From: Flavobacteriaceae bacterium
GTDB lineage: Bacteria; Bacteroidota; Bacteroidia; Flavobacteriales; Flavobacteriaceae
DNA: 33,249 nucleotides
Reading direction: 5' to 3'
Assembly (NCBI GenBank): GCA_947458575.1
Contig: CANHBE010000001.1
Location: 1-33,249, forward strand
Below the pieces are notes generated by a model. It was not told where the DNA came from, made no database searches, and was given only the letters and a program-made list of their open reading frames with translations. The translations under genes were made by a program, and so were the position numbers. Shown piece by piece: positions 10,059 through 28,199 of the stretch (the first letter of the stretch is position 1; each line of letters starts with the position of its first letter).

Positions 10059-10103
10059 TAAAGAAAAGGCCGGTTTTGTAGAACAAAACCGGCCTTTTCT
10101 TTA
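10059..10103. terminator. Bidirectional terminator after sodA
   Basis: 21-bp perfect stem TAAAGAAAAGGCCGGTTTTGT / ACAAAACCGGCCTTTTCTTTA with a 3-nt loop. Confidence 0.9.
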
Positions 10104-10114
10104 GATAGTTGTAA

Positions 10115-10190
10115 AAAATAAAAAAGGTGAAATTGCTTTCACCCTTTTTGCCCCAAATCTACCATAAGCTTAAACCTACTAAATTATGGT
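10115..10190 (-). ncRNA. Putative small RNA, tandem copy 1
   Basis: Upstream TATATTTA (-7 variant, 10202-10195). 5' stem ACCAUAA/UUAUGGU, linker AGAUUUGGGGC, terminator GGUGAAA-GCAA-UUUCACC-U6. Paralog 192 bp away. Confidence 0.68.
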
Positions 10191-10306
10191 GCTGTAAATA
10201 TATTACCAAATCCCAGCTTTGCATTATTGAACGCTTAATTATATTGGAATAATAGGCAAATAAGAGTGAATGTGCCTTTTTGAATAGGTCTAAATCAAAA
10301 CTATTG

Positions 10307-10382
10307 AAAATAAAAAAGGTGAAATTTCTTTCACCCTTTTTGCCCCAAATCTACCATAAACTTAACCTACTAATGCTATGGT
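10307..10382 (-). ncRNA. Putative small RNA, tandem copy 2
   Basis: Consensus promoter directly upstream. 5' stem ACCAUAG/UUAUGGU (G-U pair), same linker, terminator with GAAA loop and U6. Confidence 0.72.
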
Positions 10383-10386
10383 TCAC

Positions 10387-10418
10387 CAAAAGTATAGTTA
10401 CGAACTCTTTTCCACAAA
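10387..10418 (-). promoter_or_regulatory. Promoter of sRNA copy 2
   Basis: TTTG (10418-10415)-N20-TACTTTTG (10394-10387), exact consensus, with no protein-sized ORF downstream on this strand. Confidence 0.75.
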
Positions 10419-10471
10419 TAAATTAGACGAACTACACCAAAACTCGATAAAGTGTTGAGAGTTTGTCCGTG

Positions 10472-12370
10472 TTAATAAGCTCTTGTATCTTTTCCTTCAA
10501 AAAAGTTAATAAAAGCTCTATTAACTACTCTATTTCCTCCAGGAGTTGGGTAGTTTCCCGTAAAATACCAATCCCCTAAATTCTTCGGGCATGCAATGTG
10601 TAGGTTGTCAATTGATTGAAAAATAATCTTAACTTCAGAATTTATGTCAGAACTACTTAACATTTCAGCTATCTTATCCGATATTTCTTGCTCATGAAAA
10701 GGACTGTAAATTTCTGTTACAAAGTTTCTTATCTCAGAATCCTTGAGAAATTCTTGAGCTTTACATTTCTGATACACCTCTTCTACTATATGGTAGAGAT
10801 TTCGTTCTTGCAATAACAAAAGTGCTGCCTTAAATGCAATTAATCCTTCTAATTTTGCCATATCAATGCCGTAGCAATCCGGATAACGGATCTGTGGTGC
10901 AGACGAAACAATAACAATCTTTTTAGGTTTTAGCCGATTAAGCATTTTTAGGATACTCATCTTCAAAGTAGTTCCTCTAACAATGCTATCATCAATCACC
11001 ACTAAATTATCCGTTGGCTGCACAACCCCATAGGTCACATCATAGACATGTGCTACCAAATCGTCTCGGCTTTTGTCCTCTGTTATGAAAGTTCTTAGTT
11101 TAGCATCTTTTATTGCAATTTTCTCGGTTCTAATTTTTACCGACAAAATCTGCTCTAATTTTTCTTTTGTCAGAGTCTTTCTATTTTCAATAATGAATTT
11201 GTTTTTCCTTTGATTTAGGAAATCTTGCGCTGCTTCAACCATTCCAAAGAATGAAGTCTCGGCAGTATTGGGAATATACGAAAAAACAGTGTTGTCGGTG
11301 TCATTTCCAATGGCATTGAGGACAGACGGCAAAACCAATTTCCCCAAAGCTTTTCTTTCCTGATAAATTTCTGCATCGCTCCCGCGAGAAAAATAAATTC
11401 GCTCGAAAGAGCATGCTTTCTTTTCTAATGGACTGATTATTTCTTCCTCCGATACGTAACCATTCTTTTTTACGATCAAAGCATTACCGGGATTTAACTC
11501 CCTCACTTTATCAAAATCCACATTAAAAACAGTTTGTATTGCAGGTCGCTCTGAAGCAACAACCACAATCTCATCGTCTTCATAAAAATAGGCTGGCCGA
11601 ATCCCAGCAGGATCTCTAAAGACAAAAGCGTCGCCATGTCCGAATAGTCCAGCCATTGCATATCCTCCGTCCCAACCGCGTGATGCTTTCTTTAATATCT
11701 TTGAAACATTTAGTTGCTCAGCAATTACGGGCGAAGCCTCTCGTTTGGACAACCCCTTGTTCTTGCAATTCTGATATAGCTCGGTAACTTCGTCATCTAA
11801 AAAATGACCTATTTTCTCCATCACAGTTACGGTGTCGGTCATTTCTTTTGGATGTTGACCAAGTTCAACCAGACTATTAAATAGTTCATTTACATTTGTC
11901 ATATTAAAGTTTCCTGCAACTATTAAGTTACGATGCATCCAATTGTTTTGTCTTAAAAATGGATGGACACTTTCAATGTTGTTTTTTCCGAATGTCCCAT
12001 AACGCACATGCCCCAGAAAAAGCTCGCCTACATAAGGAACATCTCTCTTCAGGAGATTTATATTGTCATTATACTCTGGATGTTGCTCCATTTCTGAATT
12101 TATTCTCTCGTTTATTTGAGAAAAAATGTCTTGAATAGGCTGTGCATCGTTCGAACGTATCCTACTAATGTATCTTTCACCCGGACTAACATCTAATTTA
12201 ATGGACGCGAAACCTGCGCCATCCTGACCTCGATTATGTTGTTTTTCCATAAGTAAGTACATTTTCTGTATGCCATAAAATGCAGTTCCGTACTTTTCCT
12301 TGAAAAATTCAAGTGGTTTTTTGAGTCTTAGCAAAGCAATTCCACATTCGTGTTTTATCGAGTCGCTCAT
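10472..12370 (-). CDS. purF: Amidophosphoribosyltransferase (long Bacteroidota form)
   Basis: Propeptide then catalytic Cys (KHECGI), QHNRGQDGAG, GHVRYGT, PRPP motif VIDDSIVRGTT. Confidence 0.92.
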   Translation of the reverse strand: MSDSIKHECGIALLRLKKPLEFFKEKYGTAFYGIQKMYLLMEKQHNRGQDGAGFASIKLDVSPGERYISRIRSNDAQPIQDIFSQINERINSEMEQHPEYNDNINLLKRDVPYVGELFLGHVRYGTFGKNNIESVHPFLRQNNWMHRNLIVAGNFNMTNVNELFNSLVELGQHPKEMTDTVTVMEKIGHFLDDEVTELYQNCKNKGLSKREASPVIAEQLNVSKILKKASRGWDGGYAMAGLFGHGDAFVFRDPAGIRPAYFYEDDEIVVVASERPAIQTVFNVDFDKVRELNPGNALIVKKNGYVSEEEIISPLEKKACSFERIYFSRGSDAEIYQERKALGKLVLPSVLNAIGNDTDNTVFSYIPNTAETSFFGMVEAAQDFLNQRKNKFIIENRKTLTKEKLEQILSVKIRTEKIAIKDAKLRTFITEDKSRDDLVAHVYDVTYGVVQPTDNLVVIDDSIVRGTTLKMSILKMLNRLKPKKIVIVSSAPQIRYPDCYGIDMAKLEGLIAFKAALLLLQERNLYHIVEEVYQKCKAQEFLKDSEIRNFVTEIYSPFHEQEISDKIAEMLSSSDINSEVKIIFQSIDNLHIACPKNLGDWYFTGNYPTPGGNRVVNRAFINFFEGKDTRAY

Positions 12371-12390
12371 AATTAATTAGGTCTATAAAT

Positions 12391-12417
12391 AAAAATGCCC
12401 CGAAAAATTCGAGGCAT
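12391..12417 (-). terminator. Probable terminator after the PfkB kinase gene
   Basis: Minus strand AUGCCUCGAA-uuu-UUCGGGGCAU followed by a U run. Confidence 0.65.
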
Positions 12418-28021: not shown

Positions 28022-28124
28022 AATCTTATTTTTTTACTTTCGTTTCCGCTACTACAATTCTTTGATTCTGAAGCAACGGAAAGCGGGTTTTTGATTTTAT
28101 GAAAATTTGTAATGTACTGCAATT

Positions 28125-28199
28125 GCTAGCCCTGATGGCAGCGGCATCCTTTTGTGTTGGCGTTCAACACAAAAGATACAGCGAACAGCAGGAAGTAGC
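28125..28199 (+). ncRNA. Structured intergenic element resembling the Flavo-1 RNA motif
   Basis: GCTAGCCCTGATGGCAGCGGCATC, then an 11-bp stem CTTTTGTGTTG/CAACACAAAAG, then ATACAGCGAACAGCAGG; nested GCTA/TAGC and CCTG/CAGG pairs. Family name is from memory, not searched. Confidence 0.6.

What the first reader, a model, noticed from the sequence alone, without database searches (positions are those of the whole stretch)
10115..10418. Tandem pair of paralogous, independently promoted small RNAs between sodA and purF
Seen: two 76-nt direct repeats 192 bp apart (10115-10190 and 10307-10382), 52/53 identical over the terminator-proximal part, with unrelated flanks. On the minus strand each has a -7 element at the same offset (TATATTTA; TACTTTTG with a perfect -33 box). 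Each then has a 5' hairpin displaying UUAGUAGGUU, an invariant linker AGAUUUGGGGC and a U-tailed terminator. The differences preserve structure: the terminator loops GCAA and GAAA are both GNRA, and an A-U pair becomes G-U, which works only on the minus strand. Inference: a sibling sRNA system, either base-pairing through the UUUGGGG seed or sponging an RNA-binding protein, with the two promoters reading different signals. I do not recognise the family. This is the best candidate for an undescribed system here.
Basis: partly seen in the sequence, partly recalled or inferred. Interest (0 to 1): 0.82.

Follow-up and report, generated by a model that had tools for sequence, protein, structure and literature searches.

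The report
Tandem Rfp13 sRNAs silencing CAP lipoprotein
These two repeats are copies of a small RNA gene found across Flavobacteriaceae and already shown to be transcribed in a fish-pathogen relative (Rfp13); the RNA is predicted to base-pair over the start of a CAP-domain lipoprotein message and likely shuts off its translation, with the two copies likely switched on by different regulators.

Summary
It is the Rfp13/Rfp15 family of Flavobacterium psychrophilum (PMC9723704, supplements). Rfp13 is 73 nt, lies on the minus strand just after sodA, has a mapped start on the same A as predicted here, and rises about 2^7-fold in stationary phase. Its function is untested and no Rfam family reaches threshold. 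It occurs in 85 of 100 Flavobacteriaceae genera sampled, with two or more copies in 77 of those 85, mostly between sodA and purF.

Three things are new here, all computed. (1) One outstanding target: the leader of a CAP-domain lipoprotein gene (G000:C39, beside pdxH) pairs from -40 to the AUG at -45 kcal/mol, rank 1 of 2259; the site is kept in 14 of 20 congener hits. (2) Copy 2 carries a period-20 direct-repeat operator, likely LytTR-type, that also precedes a LytTR gene, gldK and secreted-protein genes. (3) Copy 1 lacks it and carries a different conserved 30-nt element at fixed spacing.

It works like Bacteroides GibS/FopS but fails FopS membership. F. psychrophilum keeps the RNA without a CAP gene beside pdxH, so other targets are likely.

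The parts
10115..10190 (-). sRNA copy 1 (sodA-proximal); predicted start 10190, end in the U tract near 10119
   Evidence: (90 bits); start inferred from the mapped start of Rfp13
10307..10382 (-). sRNA copy 2 (purF-proximal); predicted start 10382
   Evidence: (103 bits); its 5' 41 nt are identical in 36 of 245 copies collected
10120..10149 (-). intrinsic terminator of copy 1
   Evidence: covariation
10312..10341 (-). intrinsic terminator of copy 2
   Evidence: covariation
10342..10353 (-). linker seed of copy 2 (nt 30-41; 10150-10161 in copy 1), single-stranded in copy 2
   Evidence: invariant columns; opening cost 1.4 kcal/mol; pairing profile
10360..10371 (-). loop block of copy 2 (nt 12-23), second predicted pairing region
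   Evidence: pairing profile in CAP leaders
10195..10202 (-). -7 promoter box of copy 1
   Evidence: logo of 234 upstream regions; consensus in PMC7366714
10387..10394 (-). -7 promoter box of copy 2
10415..10418 (-). -33 promoter box of copy 2
10424..10457 (-). period-20 direct-repeat operator of copy 2 (-75 to -42), likely bound by a LytTR response regulator
   Evidence: 27.2 bits with a matrix trained on 229 relatives' promoters, window excluded
10239..10270 (-). second conserved unstructured element ahead of copy 1 (-80 to -49), likely an operator for an unknown regulator
   Evidence: 18 of 174 relatives' loci; ends -44 to -49 from the start in 16 copies; unique in own genome
9433..10041 (+). 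sodA, convergent flanking gene with its own terminator at 10059-10103
10472..12370 (-). purF-like amidophosphoribosyltransferase, upstream flanking gene
   Evidence: TIGR01134 match below cut-off; F. psychrophilum purF is annotated at the same length, 1899 nt

Best explanation
The two repeats are paralogous genes of the Rfp13 small-RNA family, and their RNAs are predicted to act in trans by pairing over the ribosome-binding region and start codon of target mRNAs, chiefly that of a CAP-domain lipoprotein beside pdxH, which would repress its translation. Each copy has its own promoter and terminator (shown in sequence; transcription shown for the F. psychrophilum ortholog only). Copy 2 is likely activated by a LytTR response regulator through a direct-repeat operator shared with secreted-protein genes, gldK and a LytTR gene (inferred). 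Copy 1 is likely activated by another factor (inferred), so two signals would feed one regulatory output. The CAP gene carries the same operator in about a third of relatives, which would make an incoherent feed-forward loop there (inferred). More targets are likely.
For: Expression of the ortholog: start on the same A, 5'-end coverage 7237, SigA promoter, log2 fold change 7.09 stationary vs exponential, 2.38 iron chelator, 2.2 NaCl. Target: CAP leader -44.9 and -45.9 kcal/mol, rank 1 of 2259 leaders (means -17.6 and -18.2, sd 3.7 and 3.8; next best -36.4 and -35.3; best of each of 6 shuffled sRNAs -29.8 to -34.0). Net of opening costs of 6.9-9.3 plus 7.6 kcal/mol the pairing stays strongly favourable. 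Site kept in 14 of 20 congener CAP hits, 13 of 17 pdxH-adjacent. In other genera 15 of 24 pdxH-adjacent CAP leaders carry both blocks and 20 of 24 the linker block, against 38 and 175 of 2281 background leaders. Co-occurrence: CAP hit in 57 of 65 genera with the RNA and 2 of 15 without. The site covers the A(-3, -6, -11 to -15) determinants of Bacteroidota initiation (PMC7366714; same bias in own genome). Operator: 17 own-genome hits of 17 bits or more, 16 intergenic, against 0-3 with five shuffled matrices; top hit precedes a LytTR gene; 16 of 50 CAP genes vs 0 of 347 background genes. Rfp13, Rfp15 and 2 of 4 LytTR genes share expression cluster B546.
Against: No experiment on pairing or regulation. 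No compensatory change between sRNA and target was found, because the sRNA barely varies. F. psychrophilum has the RNA but no CAP gene after pdxH and no CAP-type annotation under the terms searched. 8 of 65 genera and 2 of 20 congeners have the RNA without a CAP hit with this query; 4 of 17 pdxH-adjacent congener leaders lack the site. By the full-duplex criterion only 7 of 30 other-genus leaders pass. 0 of 10 leaders from a divergent clade carry both blocks (8 of 10 the loop block; pdxH was not found in the 1.2 kb fetched for any of them). The two blocks were defined after seeing the data, and kin are not independent. The own CAP gene scores only 11.8 for the operator. The operator precedes only 5 of 16 scored LytTR homologs. 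That LytTR proteins bind such repeats is recalled; searches found no paper defining the site in this group.
Confidence: 0.68

Rival explanations
1. A broad regulator: the RNA pairs loosely with many leaders (surface, motility and secreted proteins such as gldJ), and CAP is one well-fitting target among many, or its leader acts as a sponge for the RNA.
For: The 41-nt 5' part is nearly invariant across the family even where no CAP gene is found. gldJ leaders hold the loop block in 7 of 28 genomes vs 1.4% background. Published CopraRNA ranks include remG, sprD and gldL. The RNA reaches the top values seen in the array rows read.
Against: gldJ duplexes are weak (median z -1.3) and lack the linker block (0 of 28); a conserved 64-aa gene gave median z -1.0. 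Linker-only matches in congeners are near the reversed-pattern control, and only 3 of 30 loci examined had a start codon within 70 nt.
Confidence: 0.17
2. A protein sponge: the copies titrate an RNA-binding protein such as the RbpB-like RRM protein, and the CAP complementarity is secondary.
For: One RRM_1 gene in the own genome; FopS and GibS bind RbpB (PMC11697453); multicopy and abundant.
Against: There is one motif per RNA, not a repeated one. A protein-binding motif does not explain a conserved antisense site over a start codon. FopS bind RbpB and still act by pairing, so binding would be compatible with the best explanation.
Confidence: 0.07
3. An iron-sparing RNA like RyhB or PrrF1/2, repressed by Fur and aimed at iron enzymes such as sodA.
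For: Tandem pair beside sodA; Rfp13 is commented 'induced under iron depletion', log2 fold change 2.38.
Against: Growth phase gives 7.09 and salt 2.2, so iron is not the dominant cue. The conserved upstream elements are direct repeats upstream of -42, not a palindrome over the promoter. sodA is not among the top 25 leaders for either copy. A Fur matrix was not tested.
Confidence: 0.05
4. Duplicated terminators, a repeat element, or leaders of small peptides, with no trans function.
For: The hairpins can terminate on both strands; a 26-codon antisense ORF starts opposite copy 2's 5' end.
Against: The non-terminator part is the most conserved; there are 1-6 copies per locus; the ortholog has its own start. 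The antisense ORF has a median of 5 codons, and 35 of 201 reach 25.
Confidence: 0.03

Closest known systems
Rfp13 and Rfp15 of Flavobacterium psychrophilum (Guerin et al. 2021, PMC9723704)
   Same: Same family and locus: Rfp13 lies on the minus strand after sodA, Rfp15 after purF; same start offset; Rfp13's 5' part is one of the variants collected here.
   Different: In that species sodA and purF are 44 kb apart and Rfp15 has a degenerate linker. In the parts read, the paper does not call them paralogs, names no operator, does not list a CAP target among the 52 CopraRNA rows seen, and tests neither RNA.
FopS (RF04319) and GibS of Bacteroides (PMC11697453, PMC7366714)
   Same: Multicopy, about 70 nt, AU-rich 5' part plus terminator, primary-sigma promoter; long pairing over the start codon represses translation. 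The FopS model is the best Rfam hit on copy 2, full length.
   Different: 21.6 bits vs gathering score 56; the 5' R1 seed is missing and a G-rich linker is present; tandem at one locus rather than 12-15 copies per genome; predicted target is a CAP lipoprotein, not susC.
Tandem sibling sRNAs under two-component or metal control (OmrA/OmrB, PrrF1/PrrF2; details recalled)
   Same: Adjacent paralogs with separate promoters and a shared seed.
   Different: No sequence relation; those siblings share one regulator (recalled), while here the two copies carry different upstream elements.

Membership tests
Rfp13 family (F. psychrophilum) | Sequence of the 5' part and linker | tested here: met
   Copy 2 differs by one base from the commonest variant, which equals the F. 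johnsoniae CopraRNA input; Rfp13's variant occurs twice among 245 copies
Rfp13 family (F. psychrophilum) | Minus strand, convergent with sodA or downstream of purF | tested here: met
   both genes flank 15 of 19 congener loci and 21 of 29 other-genus loci
Rfp13 family (F. psychrophilum) | Discrete transcript from a primary-sigma promoter | tested here: inconclusive
   Promoter boxes present; the RNA runs laid were contigs of relatives only; shown for the ortholog
FopS (RF04319) | Score at or above Rfam gathering threshold 56 | tested here: not met
   21.6 and 15.5 bits; unrelated own-genome sites reach 22.6
FopS (RF04319) | R1 seed at the 5' end | tested here: not met
   The model's first ten positions align with a gap and mismatches; that these hold R1 follows
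FopS (RF04319) | Detectable homology of the 5' part | tested here: inconclusive
   p 0.23 and 0.10 against shuffles for 2 distinct FopS copies; reverse search 20.1 bits on 2 of 3
FopS (RF04319) | Binds the RRM protein RbpB | not testable with these tools
   One RRM_1 gene present
FopS (RF04319) | Represses by pairing at the start codon | tested here: inconclusive
   Predicted and conserved for the CAP leader; not shown by experiment
Fur-repressed iron-sparing sRNAs (RyhB/PrrF type) | Iron is the dominant signal; Fur box over the promoter | tested here: inconclusive
   Iron 2.38 vs growth phase 7.09; no palindrome in the logo; Fur matrix not run
REP/MITE-type dispersed repeats | Many dispersed copies per genome | tested here: not met
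   2 strong copies in own genome; 1-6 per genome in 85 genera

The most novel reading that the evidence does not exclude
This is the central stationary-phase riboregulator of Flavobacteriaceae: an expandable array of near-identical RNA genes, each copy plugged into its own signal, that forms a LytTR-driven feed-forward loop timing a CAP lipoprotein and other surface or type IX-secreted proteins, and it is the flavobacterial branch of an ancient Bacteroidota family that also gave FopS and GibS.
Probability: 0.22. Interest if true: 0.8.

Novelty: new member of a known kind. Interest (0 to 1): 0.58.

Why it matters
Few sRNAs of Bacteroidota have known targets, and within the searches made only Rfp18 has been tested in Flavobacterium. 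This RNA is present in most Flavobacteriaceae genera sampled and strongly induced in stationary phase. It now has a concrete predicted target, a candidate activator and a second promoter element, all testable in F. johnsoniae. It also gives a regulatory handle on bacterial CAP/YkwD-like lipoproteins (no solved relative found by sequence), and a candidate binding site and regulon for flavobacterial LytTR regulators.

Tried and rejected
Rfam at gathering threshold: nothing at this locus, only Flavo-1 at 28124-28199. FopS membership rejected; homology left open.

Public RNA runs: 24 rows, none holding half the words; four laid, all contigs of relatives, so no evidence on expression.

Linker-only seed scan in 24 congeners: counts near the reversed control, mostly antisense to coding regions. 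Small intergenic ORFs (755): no outlier apart from the locus itself. gldJ and the 64-aa gene as targets: weak. Rfp47, which lies where the CAP gene would be in F. psychrophilum, shows no remnant of the site by eye. The second upstream element as a structured RNA: no consensus fold on either strand. An 8-codon sense ORF seen by eye in both copies was not pursued, since the A tract it crosses varies in length among relatives.

A per-9-mer enrichment count over own-genome leaders was not run, so weak multi-target seeds remain open. Three look-ups in earlier findings returned nothing. Literature searches for Rfp13, for LytTR sites and for CAP lipoproteins in this group found nothing relevant beyond PMC9723704; subscription papers are not covered.

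Full report
Observation. They fold better on the minus strand than any of 200 shuffles, end in U-tailed terminators, and have -7 boxes at the same offset, with a -33 box only in copy 2. The flanking genes are sodA and a purF-like gene. In an alignment of 22 copies the terminator has changes on both sides in 5 of 13 pairs and the 5' hairpin in 0 of 10, so the 5' 41 nt are kept as sequence.

Distribution. The locus matched 20 of 24 congeners. An exact 18-mer scan gave 119 stretches in 7 of 64 parts of the genome collection, about 1100 in all; most of the 80 titles shown name Flavobacteriaceae, some only Bacteroidota, and one each is labelled Bacteroidales and Pseudanabaena. From 139 loci I collected 245 copies in 130 loci, 1-6 per locus, median spacing 199. 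A covariance model found it in 85 of 100 genera of the family, with two or more matches in 77. Outside the family 4 of 131 genomes gave only weak hits of 32-36 bits. sodA and purF both flank 15 of 19 congener loci and 21 of 29 other-genus loci. The own genome has two strong copies; the third hit, at 26 bits, is the antisense of the CAP leader described below.

Prior description. No Rfam family reaches threshold here. The supplements of PMC9723704 list Rfp13 (73 nt, minus strand, 83 nt past sodA) and Rfp15 (66 nt, just past purF, degenerate linker). Rfp13's start is the A that corresponds to 10190 and 10382, with 5'-end coverage 7237 and a SigA call. Log2 fold changes are 5.68 (transition), 7.09 (stationary), 2.38 (iron chelator) and 2.2 (NaCl); Rfp15 gives 3.37 in stationary phase. 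The main text names both only as structured and conserved. I saw passages of the main text and rows of six supplementary tables; the SI Appendix could not be opened.

Target. Duplex scans of nt 1-45 against 2259 own-genome leaders (my own gene calls) put one gene far ahead for both copies: G000:C39:4261-4761, at -44.9 and -45.9 kcal/mol. The next best were -36.4 and -35.3, and six shuffled RNAs reached at best -29.8 to -34.0. The product is a 166-aa CAP-domain protein (weak YkwD match below cut-off). Its lipoprotein signal is read by eye, not predicted by a tool. The duplex runs from -40 to the AUG. In congeners 14 of 20 CAP hits keep the site, at -34 to -52 kcal/mol against shuffles near -20; 13 of 17 pdxH-adjacent ones do. 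In other genera the leaders are shorter. Only 7 of 30 pass the full-duplex test, but 20 of 24 pdxH-adjacent leaders hold the linker block and 15 of 24 both blocks, against 175 and 38 of 2281 background leaders. By the stricter perfect-6-mer rule 7 of 17 congener leaders hold both. These blocks were defined after seeing the leaders. CAP hits not beside pdxH hold both blocks in 1 of 9, and ten from a divergent clade in 0 of 10. A CAP hit was found in 57 of 65 genera with the RNA and 2 of 15 without (80 of the 100 genera searched); kinship and genome reduction inflate this. F. psychrophilum has no CAP gene after pdxH, so the RNA likely has other work. gldJ is a weak candidate, with the loop block in 7 of 28 genomes.

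Control. A logo of 234 upstream regions shows a direct repeat with period 20 between -75 and -42. A matrix from 229 relatives' promoters scores copy 2 at 27.2 bits and copy 1 at 4.1. It gives 17 own-genome hits of 17 bits or more, 16 of them intergenic, against 0-3 for five shuffled matrices. The top hit precedes a LytTR response regulator. Other hits of 14 bits or more precede gldK, an LRR protein, a WG-repeat protein, large Ig-like, CotH and choice-of-anchor L proteins, an L,D-transpeptidase, a TPR protein and a LuxR-type regulator. The repeat precedes 5 of 16 scored homologs of that LytTR gene (3 of 19 not scored, 3 of 16 with short ORF calls); these five lie about 4-5 kb from the array. 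Two of four LytTR genes of F. psychrophilum share cluster B546 with Rfp13 and Rfp15. That LytTR proteins bind imperfect direct repeats about 21 bp apart is recalled. The repeat also precedes 16 of 50 CAP genes against 0 of 347 background genes, though the own CAP gene scores only 11.8. In arrays it precedes 69 of 72 first, 33 of 34 middle and 51 of 72 last copies (matrix trained on these). Many copies that lack it carry a second, unstructured 30-nt element (18 of 174 loci), ending -44 to -49 from the start in 16 copies including copy 1, and unique in the own genome. Its regulator is unknown.

Mechanism. Shown: the genes, their promoter boxes and terminators, their spread, transcription of the ortholog, and a conserved antisense site in CAP leaders. 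Inferred: that pairing occurs and blocks initiation, as GibS and FopS do over start codons in a phylum that relies on A-rich leaders (PMC7366714, passages; PMC11697453, passages and section 8); that a LytTR regulator drives copy 2 and another factor copy 1; and that a feed-forward loop exists where the CAP gene has the operator.

Comparison and verdict. The RNA works like GibS/FopS but is not a FopS member: 21.6 bits against 56, no 5' R1 seed, and similarity not above shuffles with the two FopS sequences I had. The iron-responsive IroR preprint was seen as abstract and outline only and was not compared. PMC5395568 and PMC11212332 were seen as passages and add nothing on this RNA. The finding is a real, catalogued but uncharacterised sRNA family of a known kind; the target, the operator and the split control are new predictions within the searches made.

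Noticed in passing
window 28124-28199 (+): Flavo-1 RNA motif, RF01705, 76.1 bits.
   Followed up: no
G000:C212:3726-3920 (-), L216: Conserved 64-aa gene, missed by my gene calls, behind a 26-bit copy of the period-20 operator; homologs in 30 of 30 genomes searched, all unannotated; operator in 1 of 30.
   Followed up: partly
L258:206-272 (+), G236: Possible distant homolog outside the family: 36.4 bits, keeps parts of both pairing blocks and a terminator.
   Followed up: partly
L381-L385 vs L009, L010, L018, L019, L020: In five congeners a LytTR gene with the operator lies about 4-5 kb from the sRNA locus.
   Followed up: partly
G000:C39 about 100-110 nt before 4261; L152, L153, L157: A second, partial copy of the linker-complementary site lies further upstream in several CAP leaders.
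   Followed up: no
window 12368-12417 (purF leader): The purF leader ranks third for copy 1 (-32.0 kcal/mol), within the range of shuffled RNAs.
   Followed up: no
G000:C191:2-3193 (-), L214: Large choice-of-anchor L protein gene with both the operator (25.5 bits) and a linker-complementary stretch just before its start codon (-30 kcal/mol); conservation not tested.
   Followed up: partly
G000:C2:10825-12240 (-), L208: gldK has a 21-bit operator 196 nt upstream, hinting at LytTR control of the type IX secretion core.
   Followed up: no
L007:1716 (+), L102:910 (+), L134:272 (-): A divergent subclass of copies with an altered loop block and neither upstream element.
   Followed up: no
G000:C16 near 17375 (-): A stretch with a linker-like motif inside an apparent hairpin, unrelated in the rest.
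   Followed up: no
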